A stretch of 63,067 bases of DNA, filler included, from Stramenopiles sp. TOSAG23-6 (taxonomy: Eukaryota): NCBI GenBank assembly GCA_900128565.1. It is 11 parts of 11 records of this genome, joined end to end, with 100 filler letters (N's around TTAATTAATTAA, not from the genome) between each part and the next. Parts side by side here need not be neighbours in the genome. Positions count along the whole stretch, not along the records: positions 1 to 5,668 come from LT636857.1; 10 more parts are not named here. The stretch is one strand, 5' to 3'. How positions within the stretch are numbered: position 1 is the stretch's first letter; every line of letters begins with the position of its first letter. The notes under the pieces are model-generated. The model saw only the letters and a program-made list of their open reading frames with translations, had not been told where the DNA came from and did not search any database. Of this stretch, positions 3,599 through 57,536 are shown piece by piece. A program made the translations under genes and the position numbers.

Positions 3599-4995
3599 AT
3601 GACTACAAGCTCTAGTAACATAGAATGGTCAATCCCAGATCAACCTTTTAGAAGCTTAGGACCTTCAAAGAAAGCAATGCCACCTCCCGTTCCAAAAAGA
3701 CAAGACAAATTCTTCAAGAGTGACTGGGGTTGCCAAAACAGTGACGTCAAAAACAACGACGAAGAGTCGGAACAAGTAAACAAAATTCTTGAAGCAGAAG
3801 AGGCTATTCGACAAGCACGTGAACTAACACAAGGCAGTATGCGCTTCAACCATTTTACAAGTGGAGGCACGCGGAGAGATCAAATTAATACTTCAACTCT
3901 TCGGCGTATTTCGGAAGCTATTGCTAATCTTTTTCGTATCAAAAAAAAAGAAACAGTGGGAATTCTCGATTCAGGACATGACTACCATGTAGAAGCAATT
4001 GAATTGATAAAGTTCCAAAATACAGAATTTCTTGGTTATCTACGCCTCAAAATTCGTAAGGCAAGGTCCCGGCTGGAATTACGAAATGTCTTCAAGAGTA
4101 ATCAGCGATGGCTTGCCATGGTTGAACTTGCCCCTCCAGACCACAGCCATACTTTATTACCAGATGAACTATCAAAAATGTTATTTAAAGGTGTTGAAAA
4201 AGATGCTGAAATTGTCATCAATGACTGCGCTATTAAAGCTTGCTATGTAGATGAGCATGTATGTTTTACTTTTTTTCAAATTTTAAGTTGTTTTCGTACG
4301 CAATTTTGTACCTAACGAAAAACCATTTGAAATATTTTTCCAAAATACATATAAGTTTATTGTTTAGTAGAAAATCGAAGACTCGCCGAGCTGCTTTGGT
4401 CCACTCATTGAAGCAAGCAACACTTGTATCGTCAACTTCAGGAGATGCATGTATGTTTTATTTTTTTTTTAACAAAAAACTTTTCGTACGAAATTTTGTA
4501 CCTAACAAATTTTTTAGATTTTTTTTTGAAATATTTTTCCAAAATACATACTTAGTTTTATATACACTACTCGGACCGAAAAATTTATTATTGAAAAAAC
4601 TTCGCCTGAGGTTACGAAATGGTCGAGATAACTGCCGAACTGGAATAGAATATTCGACTGAGATGGACCGTGTTATAGTCGAATCTGTTAATATTTTTGA
4701 TATTTTATTTGTACGCCCTAAAAAGGATGGAACAAGTCAATGTGTACGTCTTTTTTCAGTTAGGGTTTGCATATTACAACAAATTGATATCCCAACTTGG
4801 AGTAATGTTAGAATGGCAAGCGTATTATTGATGGCACCAGAAGTAACAACTCAGTCCACGGAATCTCCTACAAAAAAGACAGAAGAGTCAAATATTCCTA
4901 ACCCTAACCCTATAGATAATATTCAGAGTCCAAAAGACACAAAAACACAAATTATAGAAAGTTCGCCTAGTACTGTTATATCCAAGGATAAATAG
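3599..4995 (+). CDS. Hypothetical protein, 3 exons (3599-4258, 4351-4450, 4550-4995)
   Basis: Two ORFs become one frame after removing two family introns; no motif recognised. Confidence 0.7.
4259..4350 (+). mobile_element. GT-AT introner intron
   Basis: cAT|GTATGT..TACCTAAC..ccaaaatacAT|ata; in frame. Confidence 0.85.
4451..4549 (+). mobile_element. GT-AT introner intron
   Basis: cAT|GTATGT..TACCTAAC..ccaaaatacAT|act; 99 nt. Confidence 0.8.
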
Positions 4996-5862: not shown

Positions 5863-7014
5863 ATCTTTCCCTTCCTCATTTTCATCAATTGCCCAACGTT
5901 TGACGAGGTCGTGATAGTCTCTGTACGGTGCTCCACCTGTACATTGGAAATATATTTCAAAAAAAATGATTGGTTTTGTTAGGTATGACATTTGATACCA
6001 AAAAAAAAAAATTCGAAATTCGAAAAATGAAATATACCTGTGTAAGGGATGCGTCCAGGATTAGATCGAACCTCAGGCATTGATTTACAACGGAGCACAT
6101 TATCTCTAAGATCTGCGAGAGTTCGACAATCGCGTAATTTTGTAAAAGCCTCGGGAAATAAGTAACCACAAGTAGGAAGAAGCGACTGTCTTTCCGTCCG
6201 ACCCATATAGTATTAAAAAAAATGTAAGAAAAAAAAATTTTAGGTACATAATTTTCTATGAAATAATAATAATAAAATGTAAGAAAAAAAATATTAGGTA
6301 CATAATTTTCTATGAAATAATAATAATAATGATGAAAACGTACATGTGTGTCTTTGAAAGGTTTGAGAAATCAGCAATAAATGAAGCATCAATGATACTA
6401 ATACTTATCTGATCAGCACGAACTTTGAGTAAATGGCCCATTATGAATTATGAAAAAATATTTCAAAAAAAAATTGTTAGGTACAAAATTTCGTATGAAA
6501 AAAAAATTATATAAAAAATTGAAATTGAAATGAAAACGTATATTTCCGCTGTCTCTCCACCTAAATTTTGTGTAAATGTATAAAAATCTTCAAGATACAA
6601 CTTCATAACACCATTTTGAAGCATATAATCACGTTGTTCAGAGAGTAATGAAGTAACTTCATCAGATCCTTGCAGTTTCTGTTTGTCTTTTAGTGACAGT
6701 AAATATTCCTCAAAATATTTTCCAACAGACGTTCCAATCAAAACAGTCCAGACAAGTATTGTGAAAAAAATATTTCGAAAAATCTAAAAAAATTTGTTAG
6801 GTACAAAATTTTCAAAAAAAAAAATCGAAATTGAAATGAAAACATACAAGTTGTTCAGTTCCTTTCTTAGTGGGCTCGAATGAGGCAATCGCCTTCATCG
6901 TAGATTCATCAAACATTCCTAGCGGGTGACAAGACTCCATTATAGCACTTATTTCCACTCCCACATCCGCATTTTTGAAGAGATTGAGAATCTTAAAGAC
7001 ATTGTCTATCATAT
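5863..7014 (-). CDS. ATP6V0D: V-type ATPase V0 subunit d, internal fragment; exons 7014-6848, 6753-6542, 6442-6344, 6204-6038, 5936-5863
   Basis: YMIDNV..CHPLGMFD..VLIGTSVGKYF..KLYLEDFYTFTQNLGGETAEIMGHLLKVRAD..GYLFP matches Vma6/subunit d motifs. Confidence 0.85.
5937..6037 (-). mobile_element. Family intron with GT-AG ends
   Basis: cAG|GTATAT..TACCTAAC..caatgtacAG|gtg. Confidence 0.85.
6205..6343 (-). mobile_element. GT-AT intron with internally duplicated core
   Basis: cAT|GTACGT..2x TACCTAA..actatAT|ggg; restores KTHMGRTER. Confidence 0.75.
6443..6541 (-). mobile_element. Family intron with AT-AT ends
   Basis: aAT|ATACGT..TACCTAAC..aattcAT|aat; restores conserved TAEIM. Confidence 0.7.
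6754..6847 (-). mobile_element. Family intron with GT-TT ends
   Basis: cTT|GTATGT..TACCTAAC..caatacTT|gtc; restores EQLVWTVLIGT. Confidence 0.8.
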
Positions 7015-7109
7015 ATGTATTTTGGAAAAATATTTCAAAAAAAAGTTTGTTAGGTACAAAATTTCGTACGAAAAATAAATTCGAAATTGAAAAAAAAAAT
7101 AGAACATAC
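7015..7109 (-). mobile_element. GT-AT introner intron at the NOL6 / V-ATPase d junction
   Basis: cAT|GTATGT..TACCTAAC..ccaaaatacAT|ata. Confidence 0.8.
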
Positions 7110-8841
7110 ATGCTAGTGCTGGTGCACCAGAATCGGCAGCAGGACCTTTTTCTACCAACCGCCAAGCATCTGGTTCATTTAAACGTAATGCTAAACTCAT
7201 CACAGGTGCATTATCCTTATTTGAATTATATGTAGGTGGAGATTCGAAAACACCCCATTGAGCTTTACAACCAACGCTATCACGTACACGAATCATTTGG
7301 ACTCTGTCCCCTAATGCATACGCCATCGTACGAGCTAACGAATTACGGAAAGCAATTGGCCATGATTGATCACACAATGAATTAAATATTGGAAGATCTC
7401 TTTTCGCTTGAATAAGTTGTTTTTTTGTATCCTGTGAATCACTGTCAATGTTTTGTGGTTCCTTTGGTCCAAATCTTGGCATAAACACAGTGAAAAACTC
7501 ATCAAAATTTACATCAAATCCAGAAGAGATCATAAATATAGAATGAAAGGCATCAACAGGATCTCCAAGAAAAGCAATCGCAGATTGTTTCGCAAGATGA
7601 CGTAATTCGATATAAGCATCTGTCGAGACTCTGCTAAAAATATTCACTGCGGGTATTCCTCTCTTTCCTGGTAAAATAATAGCAATATCGAATACTTTAT
7701 TCCAAGCTGATACATCAATACTTTCAGATATGATTTCATCATCATTTTCATCTGAGTTTTCTTCGGAATCTTCTGCATCATTTGGAGCAGGAATTAAAAT
7801 GCCTGATTCAGCAACATCAGTATTAGCAATAAACTCAATTGTTAATCGAAATATATGATATGGATCCATCTGTGGTGTAACAACGCCAGTACGAAATAAG
7901 TGAAGGAGGAGAATACAAAGCTGAAAACCATTGACGCTATCTGAAGCCTCATGAAGCTGCCGTCTTCTACTCCATATCTTCAAGAGAATACATGCCTGTG
8001 CAAATGAAGGTGACTCCAAAGCTAGTGCATGCAGCTGTTGAAGATGATCACGAAAACACATATCTTCTAAAATAGAGTTATTATAAAGAGGAGTAGCCGG
8101 TTGAGGTTCATCAAGGAAGCATCGGCGGCGGACGTTATTCCTTCGTAGTGCTAATTTCCCATGGCTAAAAGCGTCAGCTGAAACACAAGGCAAAATACGC
8201 AAAACACACTTTGATAGAGATGAATTAGTAGATTTTGATGAAGTTGCAGAAGTTTCTGTAGGTTGAAGGCAAAGTACAATTTTAGACAAATCACCACGAA
8301 ATCCTTCCAGCCAAACTTTTTTGAAGAGTTTCGTCTTTTTTAATTCTTGTGCGACAACACCGAGATAGAGTGCACGCTTGTCAGTGTATCTGTGATTCAA
8401 GTAGTCTTTCGGGGTAATACATGCGTCCGGAATCTCAATGGCTACGTCAATATTCAAGGAAGGCTTCGCCAAAGAGCGTATAAGGAAACTGCCAACAACG
8501 TCAACGCGAGCAGGGCTTTTGAAAGATAACTCAACTGGCTTGGTATGACGGTTCTGACAACAAATACCACTAAGAGAAAGTGTACTCTCTGTGACAGTCT
8601 GATCAGGTATTGTATCGATAGCAGACTTAAGGGCGAACATTACTTCCTGTATGCCAGAAAGTTTTTCGTAGTTTACAGAAAATTCGGACAAAAGTTCTTT
8701 GATTTCGAGTTGCCACAAATTTGACTTGAGTACACTATTCAGATTGCCTTCACGACTTGAAAGTGATCGCAAATGGCGAGATTCTTCCTCTGTTGGGGCA
8801 CTGAAGCGTGAGTCATGCTTCTTCATTGTAATTGGTGCCAT
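7110..8841 (-). CDS. NOL6: Nucleolar protein 6 / Utp22 (Nrap family), 5' part only
   Basis: VVGSFL..IDVAIEIP..KDYLNHRYTDKRALYL, ATPLYNNSILED, LLKIWSRRR, VEKGPAAD. Confidence 0.9.
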
Positions 8842-9018
8842 CTGTATGTTATATACAGATTTCTAGCTAGGGGGAAGTAACAGTCCTACTCCCTTGCAGT
8901 TCTGTCTGTCTCTTTTTTGTCTTTTTTGAACTGACTTTATTTACTACTACTACCGTTTAGCTTAACTACAAACCAAGTACCTTTTCATACACCAATTCTA
9001 TAAATTATAAGCATTTCA

Positions 9019-12512: not shown

Positions 12513-15500
12513 CTAACCTTGTACTTTAGCTGAAAAACTAAACTGAAACAAAGGGTTACCCTTTGACTGAAATACAGGCCACCATTCTTGATACATTGGT
12601 CCATCAGGTTTAAAACGTATTTTATATATTTTTGTATCTAGCATTTGTGAAATCGCGTCATAGACTTCATCATAAGTACTCTTAAACTTATGACCGAAAT
12701 TTTGTACCTCCATATCAAGTGATTGAGCTTTATCGTTGAAATGTACAATAGTTTGATGTCTTTTGTAATTATTAGGATCAGAAACAATTTTACTCATTTC
12801 ATCTTNGAAATCTTTTATTATGATTGCTTGACGAGCACTAAATTCTTCAAGCTCCCAACGAACCCAATGACATATTCGTACTCTTTCAGTATCCGAAATN
12901 CCATCAATGTTCGTATCCAAATTGATGAAATCCGGTAAATCTCTTGGTATGTCTGTACCTGGACTTTCTTGTTTGAATTTTTTCCTGAAATCACGCATTC
13001 CCTTTCGTCTTTTCTTCTTTATTTTTTTAATTCTTTTCTTGATATCCTTGGCGTTTTCTGGTGTTTCAGATATTTCTGTCATCATTTGCTCTTCTTCAAT
13101 GCGTGTCCATCTGATGGTCATTTGTATCTGATAATAATAATGTCTTTGTAGATGTGTTTTTCTCGAGATTGCATCATACATGGCATTACTTAAAAGCATC
13201 GGGGAAATTTTATTATATCTGTCTACTATTGCATTCCATTCATTTTGAAACCTAATCTCTGCCTCATTGCTGATTTCAAATGTTTGGTCACGACTAAAAA
13301 CGTAGTGAAATAAACTTTCCCAAGTTGTCATTGGTACACCAGCCAATCGGCATTTACGAACAGCCAAATCTGATGCTTCAAAGGAATACATATGGATTAA
13401 TCTTTCTTTTCGCTCCTCATCAGTCCAAGTTAAATGTCCAGGATAGTTTTGGGTAAATACTGCATAGTTCTGAAGTATATTCTGCAATAAGTCAACTTTA
13501 CGTGAAAGCAATGGACACAGTTTTGGCTGAATATTACCAATCTCATCCGGAATGTTGCCCATTTCTACATTTACAATTGTGAGTTCCTCTTCCTTACGTC
13601 GAACATCTTCCATGAACTTTTGGAAAATATGTCAATTGTTTTTCTGTAAGGTATAAAATTTCGTACGAAAAAATTATTTAGGTAAAAAATATAAGATGAA
13701 AACTTACATTAGTAAAGCAAATGGTAATTTAAGACGATCTGGTAGTTCTATATCTAAAGTTCTAGAACCAGGAAATATATCATTTTTGATTGTATCACTT
13801 TTCAATACATGTGTATCATCATAAACCTTTTCCCAATCTTGACCAATATTAAATAGATAACCAAAAGAAAGGAGCGGGATAACCAACCCAAGTATACTAT
13901 AATATATAGCAATTGGTTGCAGACTCCATCTAATTTTTGTTTTTTTCTCGGTTGGTTTATTTTTCTTGTTTTTATGATTGGTTTTAGTTTTAGTTTTAGT
14001 TTTAGTTTTGGTTTGATTTGCGGAATGCTCGTTGCCAACGTTTCCGTTTGCTTCCTCGTTTTTTTTCTTCCTTCGTCGGCGACGTCTCTTTTTAGTTTTC
14101 GACTGAGGTTTATGTTGTCCAACAAATAATTTTGTTTCAACAGGAGTTATTTTTTTCTCTTTAGGAGAAACATCAATCTCTTTTTGTTGTAGAAGTTCTT
14201 CAATTCGACTTTTATGTAGAACAGGCAGAATATCTTTAGAAGTATGCGAAATATGCTGAGAAACTTTTAATTTTTTATCATCGTGGGGTTCTTTGTTATC
14301 ATCTTGAGGTTTATTTTTATTCTCTTGAGGTTCATTAGTATGATGATCATTAGGAATAACTGCTGCTGTGCTATTTGCTTCCCCTGGACTCTTTGCTTCA
14401 TTTCTATCACCGAAACAAGGAATTTCAACCAAAGAGATACTAGAATTTTCAAAACATGGGCGAATATCACCACCACTAACAATATGTTTATATAAATCAT
14501 CAAATGACCTTTGAACTCGTAGAATATTCCGTACATTAACACTTGCATTTTTTTTCATTTTTTTCACAAAGTGGATCCTGGATAAACATTTCTCCTTGTT
14601 GATCAAATGGAGTATTTCTTTGTACCCCATCAGGGTAAAAAANACACTCAATGGGTCGCATGTGCATTTCTTTGTTTCGTCCGATATATGGACTATCACG
14701 AGAAAATGTTTTTAAAAACCTAATTAATTTTTCAACTAATGAATATCGATTTAAAATAGCACCTTGCATACTTAAAAAAAAATGTACCATTAAGATGAGA
14801 ACATAACCTGTTAAAGTTCCATCACGAGGATCGTATAATTTCGCTTTAAACAAATATCTCTTCATTAATAATACTATTTCTCTCATACCTTGATAACGCC
14901 CTAAGCTGTCTGTAACAAATTCAAGAGCACGAAGTCCCGAATGATTTGAAGTTTGTATTGAAATGTCGGCTTTTATATTTTGACCTTCCAGAATAATATG
15001 AGGAATCTCAGTACCAATAATTTCGGTTTCGTATCCAGAATCAAAAACAGTATTCAAAGTCTGCAAGTAATCGATGACTTCAGTAGAAGGAACTTCCCAT
15101 GGAAAAGATACAACAATATCAAGATCTGATATCCCATTGACGTAAAGGTTTTGAGCCACAGAGCCATACACAGTAGCCTTGACACCATTCGTGTAATATT
15201 TTACGCCGTGTTGGTCCACCAATGGCCACTGATAAATATTTTCTCCCAATTTTTCAACAAATTGTTCTTGATTCATCCGCTGCTTGTTGTCGTTATCGGC
15301 AAGAAGAATATTTTCAAGGTAGCGATTCGCCCAAACTTTATACTCAGGCTTTAATGTTGAATGGTCGAATGTAGGGGTGCTACAGTGTTTTCGTGTTGGT
15401 TTTGGTATAAATTCCTTCGAACTCTCCTTTAGATCCGATGTGGGTGAAACAGTAAGTGGAGCAAGTCCTCTCAAATGACTAGCGGCATTTACATGATCCA

Positions 15501-17280: not shown

Positions 17281-20200
17281 GAATGTAACTCCGGCAAACT
17301 ACTACGTTCGGCATTAGTTTTGTCATTTCGCAACCATTCACCAGTTGAAATATTTGGACTTTCTTTTGATAAAGATCTTTGTGATAATTTTGTCGCTGGA
17401 ACTGTTGGAGGGAGTGGCCCCCAATGTCTTGTACCAACTTTAATCGACTTTCTGTCTTTTGCAAAAGGAGAACGCGAGCTATCTTTTGATCTGGAACCTT
17501 TTGATGCAACACCCTGTTTTCTAGGTTTTAAAAGGATAGAATTATTCCGCTCGGGCTTTTCTTTGCTNNNNNNNNNNNNTGTTCTGATTCTGAGAAACTA
17601 GCCAAATGTTTCATATCTTGATTTGCCTGAAATAGGGCTTCTTTTCGCTTATTTTGCTCCGCGATGTTAGTTTTTGTCATTGGTTTTGCCTCTGCCTTAA
17701 CATACGCTCGAAGCAATTTCTCTTTTTTTCTCAATATTCCTTCAAATTCTTTTATTTTTTCGGGATCATCCAATTTTGTTGCTGCTTTGAGACTTTCTTG
17801 GGATTTCTGTATTTTATCTTTTCGTTGCTTATTTTTTGCAACAGAATTTTTCTTTTTCGCCTTTGATCTTTTCAGGACTCAATGCATCTGCTGTCGCGTC
17901 TTTCAAATCTTTATCTGCTTGGATGATGGCATTTTTACGTTTTTCGTGAATGTCATCTTCTCTCGCCTTTTCAACTTTGGCTTTCACATGTTCTTGGAGT
18001 AATTTTTCTTTTCGCTTTAACTTTTCTTCAAAATCTTTCACTTTATCAGGACTCATTAAATTTGCTGAAGTCTTCAGATCGTTATCTGCTTTTATGAGAG
18101 CTTCCTTGCGTTTCTCGTGTACTGCGAGATCCTTCTTTTGATCCACTTCAGCCTGTACACGTGCTTGAATGAGTTTCTCCTTCTGCTTAATTTTTGATTC
18201 AAACTGTTTCATTTTGTGGGACCCCATCAAGTTTGATGCATGTTTTAGATCGTTGTCAATTTGAAGTAGATCTTCTTTGCGTTTTTCATGTATTTCAAGA
18301 TCCTTTTGTATCTTAGCACTTGCTTGAATATGAGCTTGTACAAGTTCCTCCTTTTGTTTAAGTTTCTCTTCAAATACCTTTTTCTTCTCAGGTCTCATGA
18401 AGTTTGTTGCATCTTTCAGATCTTCATCAACCTTATCAAGAGCTTCTTTGCGATCATATATTTCTTTCACATCCTTCTTTGTATGAGCAGTAAGTAAATC
18501 TTCTTTCAGTTTTAAAGTTTCTTCAAATAATTTCTTTTCATTCTCATTCATTTCATTTGTTACTTCAGAAAGTTTTGTATTAATTTGATTCAAATCATCT
18601 CGAATTTTCCTTTGGTCTTCTTCATTATTCTTTAGCTTTATTTGAATGAGCGCAAGTTTTTGAAACATTTCGTCGTTTTGGAAAAGTTTAGCCTCCAACA
18701 TTTCCTTGTCAGTCCCTGCTGAATTTACCACATTTGTTAGATCTTGATGGATTTGGAGCAATTCTTTGTTTCGGTTTTGGTTCTCCACAGGATCATTGTC
18801 ATTGCTTCCTTTGGCTTCTAAATGTTCCAAGAGTAACTTTTCTTTGTGCTTCTGTTTTGCTTCAAAAATTTCAAGATTCTCGTCGTCCAGAAAAGATGTC
18901 GCCTCTTTTAACTCTTTTTCGGATTGATTTAGTAATTTCTTACATTTCATCTTTACTTTTACGTAATGTTCATTTGCCTTTTTTGCTTTTACAAGATCTT
19001 CAAGAAGAGTATCTTTTTCTTGTAGGGTATTCTCAAAATCCTTCATCTTGTCACTTCCTATCAGATTTGAACACGTTTTAATATCCATGTGTGTCTGAAT
19101 TAGTTCTTCTTTGCGTTTTCGAATTTCTTCAGAATCACCTGGTTTAGAAATTTCATCATTTATTCGATTTTCCAGCAGTTTCGATCTCTGTTTTAACATT
19201 GCTCCAAATTCATGTGTCTCGGTAGTCCCTACAACATTAGCTGCAGATTTTAGCTCATCATCGATATTTTTCAGTTTCTCTTTGAGTGTTTTATTCTTTT
19301 CATTTTTATTTTTTGTATCTGCTTTCGCTAGAATGTGTCTTTGAAGAATTTCCTCTTTTTGTGAAAGTTTTGCTTCAAATAAAACCATTTTATGGGTTCC
19401 CATCAAGTTCGATGCAACTTTTAGATCTTCATGTGCTTCAATTAACTCTTTCTTACGGTTTTCACTTTCTTCTGGATCATTGTCAGCACTTGCCTCGGCT
19501 TTTATATGTGCTTGCAGAAGCTCTTCTTTTCTTTTCAATTTCGCATGGAAATCTTGCTTCTTATCAGAACCCAATAAGTCTGTTGCTTCCATCAAGTCTT
19601 CATCTACCTGCACTAAAGCCTCTTCCCGTGACTCATGTTCCTCCTGACTCTTCTTTAGATTTTTTTCTGCTAAAACATTTTCCTGTACAAGGTGGTCTCT
19701 GTGTGCAAGCTTAGACTCAAAATTATTCACTTCTTCAGCATCGCTTAATTTTGAAATCTCCTTTAAATTTTCATTTAATTTTTTAAATGTTTCATTGTCT
19801 TTTCGTTTGGTATCTTTTGCTTCCTTTTTCTTCGCCTCTGCCAGTAAATGTTCTCGTAGAAGTTCATCCTTCTTCGAAAGTTTTGACTCAAATGTTTTCA
19901 TTTTTTCTGTCCCCATTTGGCTTACTTCCGATTTCAAATCGTCGTCAGCTTGAATTATGGCTTGTGTTCGCTTCTTATGCTTTTCCATTTCAGATGTTTT
20001 CTTTGCCTCTGCGTGTAGATGATCGTGAAGAAGATCTTCTTTGAGTTTTAATTTTTCCTCAAAATCTTTCATTTTCTCACCATCCGCGACATTGGCTATA
20101 ACCATTAAGCTTTTGTCAACTTCAGAAATTGCCACCTCTCGTTCCTTGTTTTCCATCAACGTATTCTCAGTCTTTGCTTCTTCATGTAAATGATCACGAA

Positions 20201-22876
20201 GTAGATCTTGCTTTAACTTCAACTTTGCCTCAAAATCCTTCATTTTTTCAGATCCCATAAGATTTGCTTCCGCTTTAAGATCTACGTCCGCTTGAAGCAA
20301 AGCTTCTTGGCGTTCCTGGTGAGCTTCCAGATTTAATTCTTTCTTTGCTTCTGCGTGTAAATGTTCATGAAGAAGATCTTGCTTTAACTTCAATTTTGCT
20401 TGAATATCTTTCATTGCCTCTGGATCAGTCGAACTTGCTATGTTTTTTAAATCTTGTGTTGCCTGTTGTAAAGCCTTCTCGCGTTTCTCATGTTCTTCTG
20501 CTTCTACAGCATCGTCAATAGCTTCATCGTTAGCCTGTGATCGCATATCAGCCTTCAATCGAAATTCTTTGCTCTTCATTTCTAATAGCTTTTGTTGGTA
20601 GATTTTTTTCTGGTAAATGTTCTCCTGTTGATGTGTACGAACTCTTCTCCACGCAATTTTAATCCTTGGTTTATTCATTCCAGGAATATGTATTGTGAAA
20701 AAATATTTAAAACTGAATTTTGTTGTTAGGTACAAATTTCGGTATGGAAAAATAAAACTTTAATTCAATTTTGAAAACGTGCGTGAAACATATTGCCGGG
20801 TTTTTGGTCAACTTCATATTCTCTCAGCGAGGATTGCTTTCCTTCAATATTGATCTCGACGCTACCAATGAGATTTGGGGTTGAGTGAAGTGATTCATCA
20901 GGACTACCTTCATCGTAATCAAAAAGATGTACATGCAGCACTGGTTTTTTTATATTAGTTCCATCACCTGGATGGACATGGACAATTTGTCGTTTAATGC
21001 GTAAAAGAAAGTATTGTTTCCAGATAGGTTTTAGAGTATCTTTCATTATTTTCGTTTTACCCCAACGGTCAGCCCCAACGTATGCTTTTATATAATCAAA
21101 CTTTTCAGGTACGTTAGACGTTTGGTTCGTTAGATATGTTAAGCAGCATGCATCAGTAGTTCGTTTCCTCTCAACTTTCGAATGTCGATCTGTTCGATGG
21201 GGATCAATATCGATATCATTCATATTCGGTAATTCAGTTGCTGAAAAAATACAAACTTCGACGTAAGCACCATCCCTAGAAACACCCCCAGGATGGACAT
21301 GTGGTCTGTGCATTCTTCGATGTACATTTGATATAATAGTGTCAGATTTGAATTTTGCATCGTGATGAACTTCGGTCAGTTCATCTGCAATAGCTTTAGC
21401 TTCAGCGGCTTCCTTTGCTGCCTCCGCAGCTTTCGCTTCAGTGTCTTTTAGGTTCGCCGTAGTCATATCTCCATCTCCACCTTTTTTCAATGAACGTTTC
21501 GCCGCAGTAGCTTTCGATATTAAAACTGCAGCATGTTCCTTCTTCTTCTTTGCTTCAGCTACAGCATCATCTTTCGCTTTATGAGCAGCAATTTCAGCTT
21601 CTGCAAGTTTAGAATGCTCTTGAGCGAGATTTGATATTTTAGTCTCAGCGGCTGTAGCTCTCACCCGGTCTAATTTTGACAGAGCTTCCGATTCGACAAA
21701 AGAGTATCGCTTTGATTTAGTTTTTGCATGTTGCAGTGCCACCCTTGCATCTTTCGCTGCCTTTTGTGACGCTTCATCTTGTTCAATTAAATGAGCAATT
21801 TGCTCAGTTGCCATGGGTCCTTTCGTTTCAACCGCTCTTTTCAGAGCCCGCCGAGTCTTTGCAGCAGCTGCTTTCTTCTCTCTTGCAACAATCACACTTT
21901 CTTTTACTGCATCATCTGCCTTTTTGGCGGCCTGTTTTGCTACGACATGTTCTTTTGCACAACTGAGTAGCAGTTTATTTGTTTCCTCTGGAAAATCATC
22001 ATTATGCCAACTTTCATGTGCCTCCTTGACGACTTTAGACTCTCTTTTGGAACGGGATGTTTCTTGTTTTGCAATTTCATAGTCAGCGACGGCTTTTGCC
22101 CTTTTCTTCTTTTTTGCTTCTAACAATTTCCATGCTGCAGAATCAGGACCTGCTTCTTTTGTTTTAAGGAGATTATCTTGAGCGTCTCTCCATTCTTTAG
22201 TAGCCNNNNNNNNNNNNNNNNNNNNNNNNNNNNNNNNNNNNNNNNNNNNNNNNNNNNNNNNNNNNNNNNNNNNNNNNNNNNNNNNNNNNNNNNNNNNNNN
22301 NNNNNNNNNNNNNNNNNNNNNNNNCTCAGCAATATCATGAATATTTGTAGCCTCTTGATGATTCACTTCGTCTTGGACTAATTTGTCACACGCAGCTTGG
22401 AAATTATTTCTCGTCCAAGTGCCACGATGTTGTGCTTGAAGTTTAACCATTGCTCTTTTAAACACTTTCTTCAGCTCGAGTTTTTTTCTCGATTCGTTAC
22501 CACGTTGAATTGCTTGTATTTTACTAGCTGCCTTTTCATTTTCAGAAGTAGCCTTTACTTCAATGGCAGGCTCTTCAGATTTATGATGATGGTGTTTATG
22601 ATGGTGATGGTGGTGTTCGCCATGTTCGCCCTGATGATGTTCGCCATGATGATGGTGTTTGCCATGATGATGTTCTCCTCCCTCATGATGCTCTCGCTGA
22701 TCTGATTTATCTTTCTCCGCATCTGTAGCTTCTTCAGCACCCGTAGCCGTATTATTTTCACTTTGTTTAGAATCACTTTCCACAACACTTTCAACGGCGT
22801 TTACTGCGTTGTCTTCACTCTGTATTGGAACTGGTTCCTCTGACGAAGAATCTTCTGAACTTGAATCGTCCGACAT
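17281..22876 (-). CDS. Large IQ-motif / C2-domain / repetitive coiled-coil protein, 3'-truncated, with gaps
   Basis: IQAIQRGNESRK and LQAQHRGTWTR; C2-like SATELP..KTKIMKDTLKPIW..LFDYD..IGSVEI; many KxFExKLxxKExLL repeats. Confidence 0.75.
20688..20782 (-). mobile_element. Family intron with GC-AT ends
   Basis: cAC|GCACGT..TACCTAAC..caatacAT|att; keeps frame NMFH-IPGM. Confidence 0.75.
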
Positions 22877-34529: not shown

Positions 34530-34690
34530 GTATGTTTTCATCATTCATTTTCATCGTTCATTTTTTTTATTAGAAATATTTGTATCACTATTTTCATGTC
34601 AATTTATTTATGTAGTTGTAACATCAAAGCCTATATTTTTTTGTTTCTAACAAAACAATTAAATTTTTAAAATATTTCCCCAAAATACAT
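34530..34690 (+). mobile_element. GT-AT intron (SWR1), diverged interior
   Basis: aAT|GTATGT..TTCTAAC..ccaaaatacAT|gga; restores QRLMDRFN. Confidence 0.85.
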
Positions 34691-36971
34691 GGATCGTTTT
34701 AATTCAGATAAAAAATTGTTTGCATTTATTTTGTCTACTCGCTCAGGTGGAATGGGTATAAATCTAACAGGTGCTGATACTGTTATATTTTATGACAGTG
34801 ATTGGAATCCTGCAATGGATGCTCAAGCTCAAGATAGAGCGCATCGAATTGGACAAACTAGAGATGTTCATATTTATCGTATGGTGACGTCATCAACTGT
34901 TGAAGAGAATATATTGTTGAAAGCAAATCAAAAACGTCATTTACAAAAATTATCAGTAGAAAAAGGAAAGTTTAATACGAAATTTTTTGAAGCAGAAGAA
35001 GAACCTGTAAATGTTTGTGATCTATTAAAAGGTGCCATTCGCGAAAAAGATAATAATGATGATATTGTACAGTCGACATCAATGAAGAATACTGGTAAAA
35101 ATCCAACACAGAAAGAAATAGATTATGCAATGGCTGCCGCTGAAGATGCCGAAGATAGAGCAGCAAGGCGTAGAGTCAATGCTGAAGAATTAGCTGATTG
35201 TGCAGAATTTACTGAATTAGGTATTCAAAGTGGTTCATCGTCTGCATCCGAATCTCGTCCAACATCTCGATCAGTCAGTCCTTTACCCGACAAAGTCAAT
35301 TCTAAAAATGACCATTCTAAAAATAGAAAACATCAAAAAAGTAGTCAAAAAAATAACAAGAATACTACATCTACTATTAGTGGAGAACAAATTTCAGAAA
35401 TGTCTAAAGAAGAAGAAAAAAGATGGAGCTCAAGTCATGGTAAAAATCTATCTGCTTTGGAAGCTGCTTTACCACCTATTCAAAGACTTGCATTGCATAA
35501 TATTGAATCAAGTTTAAATCCTGAGGCCTTTGCCCGAGATGCTGCAAATAAATTGAAAGAAGAAATTCAAGGTATGATTGAACATAGAGAATCCGTCAAA
35601 GATGAATTGACAAGAAAAGAAGAATTACTTGAATTAGAACTGGATTATGGTAAACGTGGTGGTAAACGTGCAGCATTGGTAATGTATCGTGCAAATCGTC
35701 GTAGAATTCTAAAGAAGCGAAAAATTGATCTAATTACTGGACGTACGTGGGTAATGTTTCTAGATGAAGCTACACAATTGCAGTATTATTATTGTACTGA
35801 AACAGGTCGAAAGGTGTGGAATAAACCTGATGTTTTAGTAGCACGTGATTTAATGATTAATGCACATTTCCTGATGTATCAAGGTTTAAGTACAAATCTG
35901 CTTGTGCATATCTTTTGCTTTTTGTCACCTCTTCCTGATAGAATGAATGCAGGTTTATGTTGTCCGAAATGGCTTTCTGCATTGCGATCAAATTCTTTAA
36001 GTCTATTAGTCATTGATGAAAATAATAATAATGGAACTCAAGAAAAACATTTGACTAGTAATGTAAATAATAATAATACATCTCCTTCTAGTTTATATGA
36101 AGGTGTGTATTACTCATTATCAGAAGCAGTTTCTGCTGCATTACCAGGGCATACAATACATATAAAAACTGGTCTGTACAAAGAATCTGACATTTCAATT
36201 ACAAAAAAAGTAAAAATTCTTGGACAAGGAAGTGTCGTTTTACTCGTTCAAGGTGCAATAAAATGGTATGCAAAGGGTGGGGAAATTCGAGATATTGAAA
36301 TTCGTTCTGTATGTAGACGAAATACTTCAAATTCTCAGTTAAATTCACAGTCAAATTCAAAGTTAAATTCACAGTTAAATTCACAGTCCAATGCGATAAC
36401 AATAGAAAATCAAAGTAAAGTATCTTTGCTTCGTTGTGATATTAGCAACAAAGGAGGTATTGGTGCAGCTGTGTGTGTGAATCAAAATGCGACACTCATT
36501 ATGATGGATTGTAGTGTCCATCATTCACCTGGATCAGGTTTTTTTCAATGTGGTGGATCTTCGATGCTTTCTCGTAATCAAATATATAATAATAATGACA
36601 GTGGAATTTTCCTCACTGGTGGAACATCAATACATATGAATAATACTATTAAAAGAAATAAAAAGTTTGGAGCATGTATTCTTCCAAATGCATCTGCATG
36701 CTTTGAAGATAATTTATTTATGGGAAATGAATGGGGTTCATGGGACATACCTGCTCGTACAATAATACATGATAATGGGTTTCAATTACCATTGATACGT
36801 ATACGTAATAATTATGGTACAGATATGAAAGAAAATAAAAAACATAAAACTATCAAAAGTCGTATGAAAAATCAACAATTTATACAAGATATGTCTGATG
36901 AATCAAAACAGGCAAAACATAGAAAAAAATCTTCTATTCGATTTGTAATGGGGAAAATTTCTACTAACTAG
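34691..36971 (+). CDS. SWR1: SWR1/SRCAP C-terminal exon with WW-, F-box- and beta-helix-like extension
   Basis: [52 protein letters not shown]. Confidence 0.9.
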
Positions 36972-37225: not shown

Positions 37226-37478
37226 AACCCTAATGTGTACATCAAAGCAAACATAGACGAGAGAGTAAACCTGTAAGTTGTAATAATAACCCTAACCCTA
37301 ATGTGTACATCGAAGCAAACATAAACGAGAGAGTAAACCTGTAAGTTGTAATAATAACCCTGACCTAATGTGTACATCGAAGCAAACATAAACGAGAGAG
37401 TAAGTTGTAATAATAACCCTAACCCTAATGTGTACATCGAAGCAAACATAAACGAGAGAGTAAACCTGTAAGTTGTAA
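37226..37478. repeat. About 4 tandem copies (~60-70 bp) of the RFC2 3' end
   Basis: Unit cctaatgtgtacatcgaagcaaacataaacgagagagtaaacctgtaagttgtaa. Confidence 0.9.
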
Positions 37479-37787
37479 AACTGTTGTCAATCCTTCTGCG
37501 ATACGTAAATGAGTTTTTCCAATTTCACGGATGAAATTCAACTTTACGTCCTCAGGAATATCAAGCAGTTTTGTGACACGAAATATCGTGCCTATAATAT
37601 CGGACGCAGCGTATCCCTTCTGCCAAAGTAATTGAAGATTAGCATTTGCCTTTTTTAAATTTGCTTCATAACAAGATTTCATCATTTCTTGGACTACTTT
37701 TGGATGAGGTTGATCACAAACTTTGAAAACATTTTTGCTGTTGACAAAGTCAAAACCAGCTTTTGTAGCTTGAAGATTATTGAGAGC
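37425..37787 (-). CDS. RFC2: Replication factor C small subunit (human RFC2 / yeast Rfc4), last exon
   Basis: ALNNLQAT..VFKVCDQPHP..GYAASDIIGTIFRV..IREIGKTHLRIAEG. Confidence 0.9.
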   Translation of the reverse strand, partial: ALNNLQATKAGFDFVNSKNVFKVCDQPHPKVVQEMMKSCYEANLKKANANLQLLWQKGYAASDIIGTIFRVTKLLDIPEDVKLNFIREIGKTHLRIAEGLTTVLQLTGLLSRLCLLRCTH

Positions 37788-37885
37788 ATGTACTGTGAAA
37801 AAATATTTCAAAAAAAAAAAGAAAAAGTCGTTAGGTACAAAATTCCGTACGAAAATAAAATCTGAAATGAATGATGAAAACATAC
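37788..37885 (-). mobile_element. GT-AT introner intron at the SWR1 / RFC2 junction
   Basis: aAT|GTATGT..TACCTAAC..cagtacAT|gct. Confidence 0.8.
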
Positions 37886-40160
37886 ATTAATCTCTGACGT
37901 TCTTCCACTTTCGTACTACCATCAAGTCGAACATAAGTATGTCCATGTNAATTCAGAAATATTTCTAAAACATTCAACATCTTTGTCATTTGTGTAAAAA
38001 TTAAAACTTTTGAATTTTGAGATTTCAATTTTCTCAGCAAAGGATCTAAAACTTGAAATTTACCACAGTCCCATTGAACTAAACGTTTATCCGGAAATAA
38101 AAGAGATTGGCGACGTAACCATTCATAATGAATTTCACGCCATTGGTGTAAAGCATTTTGTACAATACTATTATCTATATTTGATAATGCAGTACTTATT
38201 TCAAGAGGAACGGACCTGCCTGGTGTATCAATTTGTGGAATACTTTCTGACGGTTTTACTTTGGGAACAACTGACGTGAATTTTTGTGTTAAAATTGTAC
38301 CCATTTTCATTCTTTTTCTATAAGAATTAATCAAACCAATAGAATTATTAATAGAATCATCAACACCAAAATTTTTCCATAATAATTGATGCTTTAATAA
38401 AACATGTACACTATGACGTACATCTTTACCATATATAGGTTGTTGCTCAAGACGTAATTGATTAATACGTGAATTACGCATCCATCTATACTTCATTTCA
38501 TTGTCTTGTTTTTGTTTATACTGAAAATATGATGAGTATAATACTGAAGATTTTGGTACACCATAAAGTGTATCATTTTGATTTTGATTTTTCCACAGTG
38601 ATGATAATTTCTCTACTGTGGGACATAGCTCAAGCGCGCGAGATGAAGAAAAACTCGATTTTGATGTATTTGCTGATACATTAAAATGTATTGCTATAAG
38701 AATTTGTTTTTGTGTTTTTGAAAGATGAGAGGTTTCTGTTTCTGCAAAATGATTAGATGAACTATTGTGAATATCCATTATCAACCTAGGAAATGTCATA
38801 CATAATGGTGGAGGACAAAACGAAGACTCGATAAGTCTTTCTTCAAATAAATCTGGGTGATTACATACTTTACGCAGCTGCATCAACACACCCATCATAC
38901 TAATCACACTACCTCCTGATAGAGCAGCTCTTGTTGAACCTCTTGCCATAAAATCTTCATATAGAAATTGTTGACGTCGTGATAGCTGGCATTTAACAAC
39001 ATGTACTGTGAAAATATGTCTTAATAGTTTGGAATTCGTTAGGTATTGGATTTGAAATTATACAAATATTAAACAAATACGACACAAACAAATACTAAAA
39101 TTACTGATGAAAACATACATGTTCATATTTACCAGGTAATTCCTTTGCAACATCTTGTTTTAAACGACGTAAAAGAAAAGGACGAATAATTCCGTGTAAT
39201 CGTGAAATAACAGTTTCATTCACTGCAGTTTTACCCTCCACCATACCTGTCAATGGATTCGAAAACCAATATTTAAACTCACCACGTGAACGAAATATTG
39301 AAGGCATTAAAAAGTGCATTAAACTCCAAAGTTCCATTAAACTATTTTGTAATGGTGTTCCAGTGAGTAATAAACGTCTCTTCGTATTGAAATGTAATAA
39401 AGTTTGCCAGCGTTGAGATTGAAAATTTTTAATATTTTGTGCCTCATCGAGAATCATATAATACCATCGCTTACGACGAAAAGCATGGGCATCTTGGACA
39501 ACTAATTGATACGAAGTGATACATATATGAAAACTATTAAATTTTGACCACCCTTTTCGTTTCGTCGCACGTTGTTTTGCAGATCCATAATAAGTAATCA
39601 TATATTGTAAGAAATATGTGTACAATTTGAAAATTGTTAGATATAAAAAAAGTTTCACTTTGAATTTTTCATATGAAAATAAAATGAATAATGAAAATAA
39701 AATGAATAATGAAAACGTACACTTTAAAAGATGGACACCATTTCTTGATTTCCTGTTCCCAATTGACTATTACACTAGTTGGAACAATAATTAAATGAGG
39801 ACCCCACGCTGCTCTACTACTTGCTAAATACGCTAATAAAGTAATTGTTTGAATTGTTTTACCTAAACCCATTTCATCTGCTAAGATACCATTCAAACGA
39901 CGATCATGCATTGACACAAGCCAATCAACACCAGCACGTTGATAATTACGTAATGTTAGTTTTGGTGCAAGTAAAAATGGAACAGACACAGTGTACTTAC
40001 CAGATTTCAGATTCTCAGGAGTTTGCGTCGTTGATAACGGTTGTATTTGCTTTTCTATGGCACTATCATCATCATCTGTATATTCACAATTATCAACATC
40101 AGTATCACTATCAGACGATAAATCTCTATGTGCACCACCACCATATCGTTTTATTAATTC
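37886..40160 (-). CDS. SWR1: SWR1/SRCAP SNF2 ATPase, central exons (40160-39721, 39599-39119, 39000-37886)
   Basis: NGILADEMGLGKTIQT, ILDEAQNIKNF, LMQLRKVCNHPDLFE, DCGKFQVL, YVRLDGSTKVEERQRLM. Confidence 0.92.
39001..39118 (-). mobile_element. GT-AT introner intron (SWR1)
   Basis: cAT|GTATGT..TACCTAAC..cagtacAT|gtt; restores KYEHVVKCQLSRRQ. Confidence 0.88.
39600..39720 (-). mobile_element. GT-AT intron (SWR1)
   Basis: aGT|GTACGT..TATCTAAC..caatatAT|gat; restores FKVITYYG. Confidence 0.8.
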
Positions 40161-44864: not shown

Positions 44865-45804
44865 TGGTTATGTCTTTCAAAACGATCTGATGTATTGAAT
44901 AACACGAATTCTCTAGATATGAATCATTTGGATGAAATAAATATGACTGGAAATCCTCAATTAAATCAATTTAGTTGCAATGATAGTGAACTGGGAGGAC
45001 AAAATCATCGAGTACCAAATTTTGTACCTAACAAATTTCAAAATTTTAAAAAGAGAATTCGACCAATTTTATTCACATGTACGTTTTATTTTTTTGAAAA
45101 TTTGAATTTTTTTTTCGTAGTAAATTTTGTACCTAACAATTTTTTGATTTTTTTTCTAAAAATATTTTTCCAAAATATATGGTTTATAACTCAGATCTTT
45201 ATATTAATTGGACAAGTAGATCTTTTAGCCCCGATTGTTTCTGTTGTATTTTTGTATACTTTTCTTGTACTTAATATGACATGTTTAACATTAGAGTGGA
45301 GTAAGTCAAGAGAATCCTTTCAGCCAACATTTAGAATGTATTCATGTACGTTTTCATCTTTTTTTTTTTTTTTTTTTTTTTTTACGAAATTTCGTACCTA
45401 AAAAAAAAAAAAAAAAAAAAATATTTTGAAAAAAAAAAATATTTTTATAGTATACAGGGTTTTCATCTTTTTTTTTTTTTTCATCATTTTTTTAATAGTT
45501 AATTTCGTACCTAACAAAAAACCAAAAATATATATATTTATAGTATACAGGGTTCACTTCATTGTGTGGATCAATTTTATGTTTTGGTGCTATATTAATA
45601 TCACAACATTACATTATATCCCTTTTGATGATTGCTCTAATTGTCTCTGGGTTACTATTTAGAAAAAACAAATTAATAAACCGTTGGTCGCCAACGACGT
45701 TTTCTACTGATTCTCCTCATAATATGAAACGTTTGACCAAACAAAATTATAACATAAATGTACAACCAACAATGGATGACACAAATGTCAAAAATTCAGT
45801 TTTA
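44865..45804 (+). CDS. SLC12 cotransporter internal exons (44865-45078, 45181-45345, 45551-~45804)
   Basis: LFTWFITQIFILIGQVDLLAPIVSVVFL..LEWS..FQPTFRMYSWFTSLCG. Confidence 0.75.
45079..45180 (+). mobile_element. GT-AT introner intron (SLC12)
   Basis: cAT|GTACGT..TACCTAAC..caaaatatAT|ggt; restores FTWF. Confidence 0.85.
45346..45550 (+). mobile_element. Family intron ending in AG, appears tandemly doubled
   Basis: cAT|GTACGT..tagtatacAG twice; the second acceptor restores YSWFTSLCG. Confidence 0.65.
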
Positions 45805-55705: not shown

Positions 55706-57115
55706 ATGGCACAGCTAGTGCCGAATGAACTTTATTGCCCTATAACATTGGAAATATATGACGATCCAGTTGTTACTGCTGATGGTCACACGTATGAACG
55801 AGATGCAATTCTGCGCCACTTTCGTACAAACAATACATCGCCTTTAACAAACGAAGTGTTGCCTAATAAAAATCTTGTGCCAAACCTTAGTATTAAATCA
55901 CAATGTGTTTCATTTAAAGACAAACAAGCAAGAATGAAGAGTGATGATGTTGCTAAACGTAAAAAAGAAGCTTTTAAGAGATATACTAAATCAGCTAATG
56001 CTGGTGATAGCAAATCACAAAATAAACTTGGTGATTGTTATTTTTATGGTGANGGTGTTGCTCAAGACAAAAAAGAAGCTTTCAAGTGGTTCACTAAATC
56101 TGCTAATGCTGGAAATAGTGAAGGACAATATAATGTTGGTTTTTGTTATTATAATGGTCATGGTGTTGCTCAAGACAAAAAAGAAGCTTTCAAGTGGTTT
56201 ACTAAATCAGCTAATGCTGGGTATAGTTTTGCACAAAATAGTCTTGGTAAATGCTATAAACATGGTCGTGGTGTTGCTAAAAACAAAACAAAGTCTTTCG
56301 AGTGGTTCACTAAATCGGCTAATGTTGGTTGTAGTAAAGGACAATACAATCTTGGTAAATGCTATTATAATGGTTTTGGTGTTGTTGAAGACAAAAAAGA
56401 AGCTTTCAAGTGGTTCACTAAATCTGCTAATGCTGGTAATAGAGATGCACAATGCTATCTTGGTGAATGTTATTATTATGGTGATGGTGTTGATGAAGAC
56501 ACACACGAAGCATTTAAGTGGTATACTAAAGCAGCTAATGCCGGTCATAATAAAGCACAATACAAGGTTGGGTATTCTTATTATTATGGCGATGGTGTTG
56601 CTGAAGACAAAAAAGAAGCTTTCAAGTGGTTTATGAAATCAGCTAATGCTGGGTATAGTCGAGGACAATATAATCTTGGTAATTTTTATTTAAATGGTGA
56701 TGTTGTTGCTGAAGACAAAAAAGAAGCTTTCAAGTGGTTTACTAAGTCTGCAAATGCTGGTAATTGTTATGGACAAAATAATCTTGGTAATTGTTATTAT
56801 NATGGTNATGGTNTTGNTGAAGACTATGAAGAAGCTTTCAAGTGGTTTACTAAATCGGCTAATGCAGGTTATTGTGTGGCACAATACAAGCTTGGTTGTT
56901 GCTATTATTTTGGTGATGGTGTTGATGAAGACAAAAAAGAAGCTTTAAAGTGGTTTACTAAATCGGCTAATTTAGGTTATATCAAAGCACAAAATCAACT
57001 TGGTAATTGTTATTATTATGGTAATGGTGTTGCTGTAGACGAATTTGAAGCTTTCAAGTGGTTTACTAAATCAGCTAATGCCGGTAATGAACAAGCAAAA
57101 ACCTTTCTTTGTTGA
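55706..57115 (+). CDS. U-box E3 ligase with ~10 Sel1 repeats
   Basis: LYCPITLEIYDDPVVTADGHTYERDAI..SPLTN..LVPN; 36-aa AQYxLGxCYYxGxGVxEDKKEAFKWFTKSANAG repeats. Confidence 0.92.
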   Translation: MAQLVPNELYCPITLEIYDDPVVTADGHTYERDAILRHFRTNNTSPLTNEVLPNKNLVPNLSIKSQCVSFKDKQARMKSDDVAKRKKEAFKRYTKSANAGDSKSQNKLGDCYFYGXGVAQDKKEAFKWFTKSANAGNSEGQYNVGFCYYNGHGVAQDKKEAFKWFTKSANAGYSFAQNSLGKCYKHGRGVAKNKTKSFEWFTKSANVGCSKGQYNLGKCYYNGFGVVEDKKEAFKWFTKSANAGNRDAQCYLGECYYYGDGVDEDTHEAFKWYTKAANAGHNKAQYKVGYSYYYGDGVAEDKKEAFKWFMKSANAGYSRGQYNLGNFYLNGDVVAEDKKEAFKWFTKSANAGNCYGQNNLGNCYYXGXGXXEDYEEAFKWFTKSANAGYCVAQYKLGCCYYFGDGVDEDKKEALKWFTKSANLGYIKAQNQLGNCYYYGNGVAVDEFEAFKWFTKSANAGNEQAKTFLC

Positions 57116-57536
57116 TTTTTTTTTGCATAAATAAAAATCTTTTTAAATTTTCATAAGATTTTTTTTTTTTCATCTGATTCTCTTCTTCAATAAACAATAA
57201 ACACCTAAACTAGCCATTTGAAATTTTGTTTTTGATTTTTTTATGTTTTATAAAAAATTGAAAATGTATCAAGTACAAAATTGTCTACCAAAAAAAAAAA
57301 AAAAAAAAAAAATTTACTGTTCAATTTGTTAAGCCATATTTTCTCCACGTTTTTNNNNNNNNNNNNNNNNNNNNNNNNNNNNNNNNNNNNNNNNNNNNTT
57401 AATTAATTAANNNNNNNNNNNNNNNNNNNNNNNNNNNNNNNNNNNNNNNNNNNNTTTTTTTCAATTTCGATTTTTTTTTCGTACGAAATTTTGTACCTAA
57501 CAAATTTTACAAAAAATATATTTTTTCACAATACAT

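What the first reader, a model, noticed from the sequence alone, without database searches (positions are those of the whole stretch)
4293..4350. Unusual TACCTAAC branch-like motif embedded in palindromes, followed by a fixed 3' cassette
Seen: near-invariant TACCTAAC about 30-50 nt before the acceptor, differing from both U2 TACTAAC and U12 TTCCTTAAC. It overlaps an imperfect palindrome GTAC(G)AAATTTTGTAC and usually follows the perfect palindrome TTCGTACGAA; the palindrome AAATATTT sits just before the acceptor. The last bases before AT are A-rich rather than a pyrimidine tract. Inference: a hairpin and a strong branch site may replace U2AF-dependent AG recognition, or the palindromes are transposase-binding sites on DNA.
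Basis: partly seen in the sequence, partly recalled or inferred. Interest (0 to 1): 0.7.

Follow-up and report, generated by a model that had tools for sequence, protein, structure and literature searches.

The report
AT-ending introns with a rewritten U1
The motif is the ordinary branch site of thousands of short repeated introns in a protist that end in AT instead of the near-universal AG, and the organism's U1 splicing RNA has changed its recognition end to match how these introns begin.

Summary
The motif is real (39 copies vs 1.15 expected). It is the branch region of a ~100-nt repeated intron family (7,730 exact 16-mer matches in the assembly). The finding's copy is intron 4259-4350.

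Removal from GT to the AT-ending cassette keeps a frame open in 53 of 58 cases, against 16 of 58 for the first AG. PAGM and SWR1 junctions match solved homologues residue for residue while skipping a CAG 5 nt upstream.

U2 keeps GUAGUA, the hairpin shows no covariation, and TTCGTACGAA precedes only 46 of 177 copies.

New here: both U1 genes begin AAACGUACAUG, three changes from consensus and the best fit to the donor (C)AT|GTAYGTTT among 4,455 three-change variants. Exon and intron ends share a 2-nt repeat, as in introners.

No RNA reads were laid, so branch points and junctions are unmapped. The scan reported the GT-AT family before on other pieces of this genome; the U1 change did not appear in the notes I was shown.

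The parts
4259..4350 (+). Intron 1 of the host gene, 92 nt, GTATGT...AATACAT (GT-AT); the finding is its 3' two thirds
   Evidence: removing it and intron 2 gives 401 aa and one terminal stop, ending it at the first AG stops at aa 223
4256..4266 (+). 5' splice site CAT|GTATGTTT, complementary at all 11 positions (one G-U) to the genome's U1 5' end
4257..4258 (+). Exon-side copy of the 2-nt repeat AT (second copy at 4349-4350), read as a target-site duplication
   Evidence: 59 of 71 introns have identical ends, 0 of 20000 permutations
4293..4302 (+). Palindrome position, here imperfect (TTCGTACGCA); exact TTCGTACGAA in 46 of 177 copies
4296..4311 (+). Imperfect inverted repeat GTAC...GTAC; can fold, but shows no compensatory change
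4309..4316 (+). Branch motif TACCTAAC; predicted branch A at 4315; CUAAC pairs with unaltered U2 GUAG
   Evidence: branch point inferred, not mapped
4330..4350 (+). 3' cassette AAATATTTTTCCAAAATACAT: T run at 4335-4339, A-rich tail, terminal AT
3599..4258 (+). Exon 1 of the host gene (220 aa; no Pfam match; one metagenomic relative at 62% identity)
4351..4450 (+). Exon 2
4451..4549 (+). Intron 2, 99 nt, GT-AT, motif at 4499-4506; skips an internal TAG ending at 4517
4550..4995 (+). Exon 3 to the stop codon
10901..10995 (-). Family member in phosphoacetylglucosamine mutase; flanking residues match H367|H368 of 4bju; TTTTTTCCAG 5 nt upstream of the end is skipped
39001..39118 (-). Family member in SWR1; KYEH|VVKCQL matches yeast EH|IVYCKL (946-953); CACAG 5 nt upstream is skipped
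39600..39720 (-). Family member in SWR1 with exon ending GT and intron ending AT; FKV|ITYYG vs yeast FKVLTYYG
6754..6847 (-). Member with TT|GT...TT ends
   Evidence: open frame
6443..6541 (-). Member starting AT (AT-AT)
5937..6037 (-). Member with AG|GT...AG ends: the end dinucleotide follows the exon

Best explanation
TACCTAAC is the branch site of a genome-wide, introner-like family of ~100-nt introns removed by the major (U2) spliceosome from GT to a cassette-defined end that is usually AT. Step 1, origin (inferred): a short mobile element GTAT...ATAC inserted mostly at AT and duplicated 2 nt, so the duplicated bases supply the intron's last two letters. Step 2, donor (shown in sequence): U1 has changed at positions 2, 5 and 9 (U to A, U to G, C to A) and now pairs (C)AU|GUAYGUUU; G5 accepts both C and U at +4. 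Step 3, branch (inferred): unaltered U2 GUAG pairs CUAAC and the second A attacks. Step 4, acceptor (shown by frames and homologues): the cut is placed at the fixed cassette T5-6(C/T)CA(A/C)AATAC-NN, not at the first AG and not at a fixed distance from the branch (32-49 nt). Step 5, reader of the cassette (inferred, weakest step): a protein, probably U2AF65 on the set-back T run plus a changed or new partner in place of U2AF35, helped by weak GUAU/AUAC end pairing. The palindromes are inherited element sequence, not a selected RNA stem.
For: Frames: 53 of 58 open vs 14-16 for shifts of 1-2 nt, 16 for the first AG, 20 for the first YAG, 12 read-through, 7 antisense. Upstream frame open only in the intron's sense in 64 of 95, only antisense in 2. 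Exact homologue junctions in PAGM and SWR1 that skip a CAG. U1: two gene copies with different flanks and identical sequence, one on a contig carrying a family intron. On 107 donors, pairing at exon -1 is 83% vs 6% for consensus U1, a position not used in calling donors; rank 1 of 4,455 three-change variants. U2 GUAGUA, U5 loop 1 and U6 ACAGAGA intact; Prp8 region around human Q1522/R1532 identical (role of these residues recalled). 2-nt end repeat: 59 of 71, and 9 of 12 non-AT ends copy the exon, 0 of 20000 permutations; third base 30 of 71, near chance. Linked 5'/3' subfamily variants, p=5e-6. GTRAGTW is below chance in the window (17 vs 28.7).
Against: No RNA junction or lariat was observed. 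5 of 58 frames fail. Frames cannot tell shifts of 3 nt apart (52-53 of 58). The duplex-energy comparison (-10.3 vs -2.0 kcal/mol, 71 of 71) is partly circular because those donors were picked as GTAYGTTT. Terminal inverted repeats are only 4 nt and do not covary (+4C faces -6A in 38 of 84). No autonomous element with matching ends was found. The assembly misjoins at these repeats, which blurs end statistics. U1 scores 54 bits, below the 69.5 gathering score, and its expression and true first base are unshown.
Confidence: 0.8

Rival explanations
1. Re-coded spliceosome: AG has been replaced by AU as a read signal at both ends (CAU|GU...YAU|), with U1 A9-U10 also pairing the 3' AU, as proposed for U1 and the 3' AG in fission yeast.
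For: The U1 C9A change is exactly the one that would pair AU in place of AG. 59 of 71 ends are AT and 67 of 71 end in T. 9 introns with a non-AT exon end still end in AT. Perfect-looking CAG sites are skipped. Reich et al. 1992 and the contrary Seraphin 1993 seen as titles in the reference list of PMC5029451.
Against: 12 of 71 ends are not AT and 9 of these copy the exon end, including AG and AA, which a duplication explains without any AU reader. C9A is already explained by the donor. The mismatched pairs may be assembly misjoins.
Confidence: 0.25
2. One reading: a hairpin over the branch and an altered U2 make a strong branch site that replaces AG recognition.
For: The hairpin forms in silico (pair probability about 0.4) and leaves C+3/U+4 unpaired (0.87-0.88); it is in the minimum-energy fold of both introns here. 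The motif is more fixed than its flanks.
Against: U2 is unaltered. No covariation. Whole-intron fold z averages -0.9 over 70 copies. Branch-to-end spacing varies by 17 nt, so the branch cannot position the end.
Confidence: 0.07
3. AT-AC introns of the minor (U12) type, read 2 nt to the left.
For: The AT repeat makes GT-AT and AT-AC give the same mRNA in 50 of 71 cases.
Against: GT is kept while the 2 nt before it vary. U1 and U6 pair in the GT register. No ATATCCTT donor; branch is 32-49 nt from the end. U11, U12 and U6atac not found, though the assembly is incomplete.
Confidence: 0.04
4. No mobile element: old introns became alike through selection for strict signals and gene conversion.
For: Copies vary in the T/A runs; terminal repeats are weak; no matching transposase found.
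Against: Exon-specific 2-nt end repeats and linked subfamily variants across 90 nt; shared sequence well outside splice signals.
Confidence: 0.12

Closest known systems
Non-canonical, transposon-derived U2 introns of Fritillaria borealis (PMC13326754: abstract, section 4 and part 1 of 2 of section 26; PMC11282704: passages)
   Same: Most introns break GT-AG, derive from repeats with target-site duplications, end in AT or AC, and are handled by a U2 spliceosome with conserved U2, U5 and U6 motifs.
   Different: There the ends are mainly AG-AC and AG-AT and diverse, U1's 5' end is strictly preserved, and duplicated U2AF is implicated. Here one family with GT starts dominates and U1's 5' end is rewritten.
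Co-evolved U1 of Entamoeba (AACAAAC) and Mastigamoeba balamuthi (ACGUAC) (bioRxiv 10.1101/2022.06.08.495308: passages)
   Same: U1 5' arm changed to match an atypical donor; the U5G change giving ACGUAC is the same as in Mastigamoeba.
   Different: The passages I saw describe changes opposite intron bases. Here position 9, opposite the last exon base, is also changed (C to A), and the introns lack the 3' AG.
Introners of Micromonas and other eukaryotes (PMC11282704, PMC12130899: passages)
   Same: Many similar short introns in unrelated genes; 5' site carried by the element, 3' end taken from the duplicated target.
   Different: In Micromonas the duplication is 3 nt and supplies a normal AG. 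Here it is 2 nt and supplies AT; terminal repeats are only 4 nt.
Budding-yeast-type introns (GTATGT donor, fixed branch, long branch-to-end distance, no U2AF35; PMC8624252 and PMC10581693: passages)
   Same: GTAYGT donor, near-invariant branch, about 36-40 nt to the end.
   Different: Yeast keeps AG and an invariant U1 ACUUACC (236 of 240 genomes searched had a candidate, all invariant).

Membership tests
U2-type spliceosomal intron | 5' GT with complementarity to U1 | tested here: met
   GT in 89 of 120 with +1/+2 not scored; pairing to the genome's own U1
U2-type spliceosomal intron | Branch sequence pairing with U2 GUAGUA | tested here: met
   CUAAC core 93-100% fixed, U2 intact; sequence only
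U2-type spliceosomal intron | 3' terminal AG | tested here: not met
   AG in 2 of 71; first-AG splicing opens 16 of 58 frames
U2-type spliceosomal intron | Exact removal restores the protein | tested here: met
U2-type spliceosomal intron | Lariat at the branch A; junction in RNA | not tested
U12-type intron | RTATCCTT donor and TTCCTTAAC branch close to the 3' end (recalled; donor also in PMC5029451) | tested here: not met
   donor GTAYGTTT, branch 32-49 nt away
U12-type intron | U11, U12, U6atac present | tested here: inconclusive
   no match; assembly incomplete
Introner / MITE-derived intron | Many similar copies in unrelated genes, in sense | tested here: met
   7,730 matches, control 1 (assembly holds duplicated contigs); 64 sense-only vs 2 antisense-only of 95
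Introner / MITE-derived intron | Target-site duplication | tested here: met
   2-nt repeat, 59 of 71; 9 non-AT repeats; 0 of 20000 permutations
Introner / MITE-derived intron | Terminal inverted repeats | tested here: inconclusive
   4-nt GTAT/ATAC pairs in folds; no covariation
Introner / MITE-derived intron | Autonomous transposase element with the same ends | tested here: inconclusive
   one family searched (PF13359): two distinct loci, no matching ends seen
Introner / MITE-derived intron | Presence/absence between strains or species | not tested
   no related genome available; no metagenome result for the element
Conserved RNA hairpin over the branch | Compensatory base changes | tested here: not met
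Fritillaria-type non-canonical splicing | U1 5' end preserved | tested here: not met
   U1 begins AAACGUACAUG
Fritillaria-type non-canonical splicing | Duplicated, divergent U2AF subunits | tested here: inconclusive
   one U2AF65-like gene; U2AF35 not found

The most novel reading that the evidence does not exclude
This lineage lost or replaced essentially all ancestral GT-AG introns, was refilled by one mobile intron family, and its single major spliceosome was re-coded to it: U1 reads CAU|GU instead of CAG|GU, possibly also the 3' AU, and AG is no longer a 3' signal. It would be a natural spliceosome with a switched splice code, with Prp8, U2, U5 and U6 core motifs unchanged.
Probability: 0.35. 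Interest if true: 0.93.

Novelty: new variant of a known kind. Interest (0 to 1): 0.8.

Why it matters
Why introns end in AG, and whether the catalytic centre needs it, is an open question. Here thousands of introns in conserved genes end in AT and pass over good CAG sites, while the core RNA motifs and the Prp8 region compared are normal. This suggests the AG rule is set by early recognition factors rather than by chemistry. The U1 change opposite the last exon base shows snRNA adapting to what looks like a transposon's target site, the route that PMC13326754 says Fritillaria did not take. It also offers a natural test of the disputed U1-3' splice site pairing. In practice, GT-AG gene finders will truncate such genes: the public protein P0003 is 580 aa, against about 1,100-1,200 aa for many full-length Nol6 homologues.

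Tried and rejected
RNA: one search listed 3 seawater metatranscriptome runs (shares 0.25, 0.15, 0.08); none was laid, so they give no evidence on junctions or habitat.

Relatives of the snRNA cluster: a U5-U2 pattern in metagenome contigs gave 0 matches. A scan for the element in metagenomes returned no answer.

Canonical U1: the 12-mer occurs at 3 places, none a U1 gene.

U2AF35: not among 16 CCCH matches; the one hit of a recalled motif was a shifted frame of an unrelated gene. SF1, U1-70K, Prp18 and METTL16 were not found either, and the one zf-U1 hit did not look like U1C. U2AF65, Prp8 and Slu7 were found. The 3' half of Nol6 is also missing, so absence shows nothing.

Canonical intron class: among 321 donor-like hexamers at exon-to-T-rich transitions, GTATGT 39, GTACGT 16, GTAAGT 1, GTGAGT 0. 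This is a crude screen.

Nol6 as a junction test: rejected because the gene is joined to an unrelated 3' part. One homologue search timed out. Searches used wrong coordinates and were redone.

Literature: no paper for 'GT-AT introns' or for the term set; some searches returned the papers cited, none on this system. Supplements of the bioRxiv preprint were not seen and may list further U1 variants.

Full report
Setting. The window is a string of ~5.7-kb contigs joined by N linkers from a 21.1-Mb eukaryotic assembly of 6,236 contigs. The proteins look stramenopile to me; that label is recalled, appears in earlier scan notes, and was not tested.

Observation. TACCTAAC occurs 39 times against 1.15 expected. 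It lies in T/A-rich inserts with a shared start and a shared 3' cassette. AAATTTYGTACCTAAC matches 7,730 times in the assembly, control 1; some contigs are duplicated, so this is not a copy number. To avoid circularity I called 71 introns in 742,243 sampled bases (window plus loci, 15 overlapping or duplicate loci dropped) from donor and cassette alone. 63 have the exact motif, positions 0-6 are 97-100% fixed, the four central C/G positions of the palindrome 69-85%, and the branch A is 32-49 nt from the end. TTCGTACGAA is exact in 46 of 177 copies and GTACGAAATTTTGTAC in 40; the finding's copy has TTCGTACGCA.

They are introns, cut GT to AT. The finding lies in intron 4259-4350. Removing it and 4451-4549 gives 401 codons and a stop; using the first AG of either intron stops at aa 223 or 265. 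For the 58 of 71 introns with clean 90-nt flanks, the called ends leave a frame open in 53; shifts of 1-2 nt in 14-16; first AG in 16; first YAG in 20; read-through in 12; antisense in 7. Shifts of 3 nt cannot be excluded by frame (52-53). Homologues fix three junctions. In PAGM the exons end and resume at H367 and H368 of 4bju, although TTTTTTCCAG lies 5 nt before the end. In SWR1, KYEH|VVKCQL matches yeast 946-953 and again skips a CAG 5 nt upstream; FKV|ITYYG matches FKVLTYYG. 20 of 70 introns hold an AG between branch and end. No RNA reads were laid, so this rests on DNA and protein evidence.

Ends. In 120 motif-anchored introns, with the terminal bases left out of the scoring, the exon ends AT in 74, the intron starts GT in 89 and ends AT in 93 (this set contains some miscalls). 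In the stricter 71, exon end and intron end are identical in 59, and 9 of the 12 non-AT ends copy the exon (TT 3, CT 2, GT 2, AA, AG); 0 of 20,000 permutations match this, and the third base shows no excess. This is a 2-nt target-site duplication. Variants at +10 and -8 are linked (p=5e-6), so copies spread as units. The ends GTAT/ATAC pair in the folds of both introns here but do not covary. A search for one transposase family found two distinct loci without matching ends.

U2 was found and its branch-pairing GUAGUA is normal. CUAAC pairs as usual; the extra C makes the predicted duplex weaker than TACTAAC (-2.8 vs -5.0). The hairpin over the branch shows no covariation in 32 window copies (414 of 500 shuffles) or in 177 sampled copies. 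The upstream palindrome beats its shuffles (0 of 500), but it was taken from the consensus of related copies, and only 13 of 68 and 11 of 84 changes restore a pair. I count it as inconclusive.

The snRNA that did change is U1. U5, U2, U1 and U4 lie in a tight cluster at two loci with different flanks. U1 matches all 166 model positions (54 bits, E 5e-12; below the gathering score) and begins AAACGUACAUGG where Rfam has AUACUUACCUGG. On 107 donors the three changed bases pair at 83% (exon -1; consensus U1 6%), 99% (+4, half by G-U; consensus 1%) and 98% (+7; consensus 1%). This arm ranks first of all 4,455 three-change variants. Positions +3 to +9 were used in calling donors; exon -1 was not. 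One cluster contig carries a family intron, so contamination is unlikely. No canonical U1 gene was found. U6 ACAGAGA and U5 loop 1 are intact, and the Prp8 stretch around human Q1522/R1532 is identical. The U1 and U6 registers favour GT-AT over AT-AC; U11, U12 and U6atac were not found.

Other introns and factors. Canonical donors look rare: GTAAGT 1 and GTGAGT 0 among 321 candidates, GTRAGTW below chance in the window. U2AF65, Prp8 and Slu7 were found; U2AF35, U1C, U1-70K, SF1, Prp18 and METTL16 were not. The assembly is incomplete, so these blanks prove nothing.

Mechanism. Shown in sequence: element family, 2-nt duplication, U1-donor match, normal U2, AG skipping. Inferred: transposon origin, branch at the CUAAC A, and a protein reader of the 3' cassette. 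Because spacing varies by 17 nt and AGs are passed over, neither a ruler nor AG scanning explains the end. The bolder rival, that U1 A9-U10 also reads the 3' AU, rests on a fission-yeast proposal seen only as a title and is weakened by non-AT ends.

Comparison. Fritillaria has more non-canonical introns but keeps U1's 5' end (PMC13326754, abstract, section 4 and part of 26). Entamoeba and Mastigamoeba have co-evolved U1, the latter with the same ACGUAC (bioRxiv 10.1101/2022.06.08.495308, passages). U1 ACUUACC is invariant in Saccharomycotina (PMC10581693, passages). Introners take the 3' AG from the duplication (PMC11282704 and PMC12130899, passages). I found no paper on a GT-AT-dominated genome or a U1 position-9 change (open-licence library only).

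Verdict. It works like a U2-type introner intron but fails the AG criterion, so it is a new variant. The branch motif itself is ordinary; the AT end with a rewritten U1 is the surprise. The scan had already noted the GT-AT family on other pieces of this genome.

Noticed in passing
L001:9-645 (G000:C1146) and L002 (C6122): U5, U2, U1 and U4 genes lie head to tail with gaps of only 2, 23 and 5 nt, which suggests one polycistronic snRNA transcript.
   Followed up: partly
L001:349-508: U1 loop I and loop II (U1-70K and U1A sites, recalled) also differ from the Rfam consensus; U1-70K and U1C were not found.
   Followed up: partly
window 34671-36971 (+) and 37425-40160 (-): The SWR1 5' half is joined through a family copy to the last exon of an RFC-like gene, and the SWR1 3' half lies inverted on the same contig: misassembly or recombination between copies.
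   Followed up: partly
window 5863-8862 (-): Nol6 stops matching its homologues at the first family copy (7015-7109) and continues in frame into an unrelated protein; the Nol6 3' half is not in the assembly.
   Followed up: yes
window 13612-13707 (-): Degenerate member with a GTAAGT donor and TACCTTAC branch, still ending CAT.
   Followed up: partly
window 6205-6343 (-) and 45344-45544 (+): Members with internal or tandem duplications of the branch region or of a whole copy.
   Followed up: no
L120 (G000:C2432) and L114: DDE_Tnp_4 (Harbinger-like) transposase genes, one facing a second long ORF; no link to the intron family seen.
   Followed up: partly
G000, whole assembly: No METTL16 match, which would fit pyrimidine at donor +4 (PMC10581693), but the assembly is incomplete.
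   Followed up: partly
window 37273-37470; 55833-57212; 17969-20415: Short tandem repeat with AGGGTT-like units behind the RFC-like gene; 108-nt repeats in a SEL1-like protein; 171-nt repeats in a long charged ORF.
   Followed up: no
G000 contig ends (C4, C11, C13, C15, C2432): Many contigs begin or end inside a family copy, so the repeat fragments the assembly.
   Followed up: no
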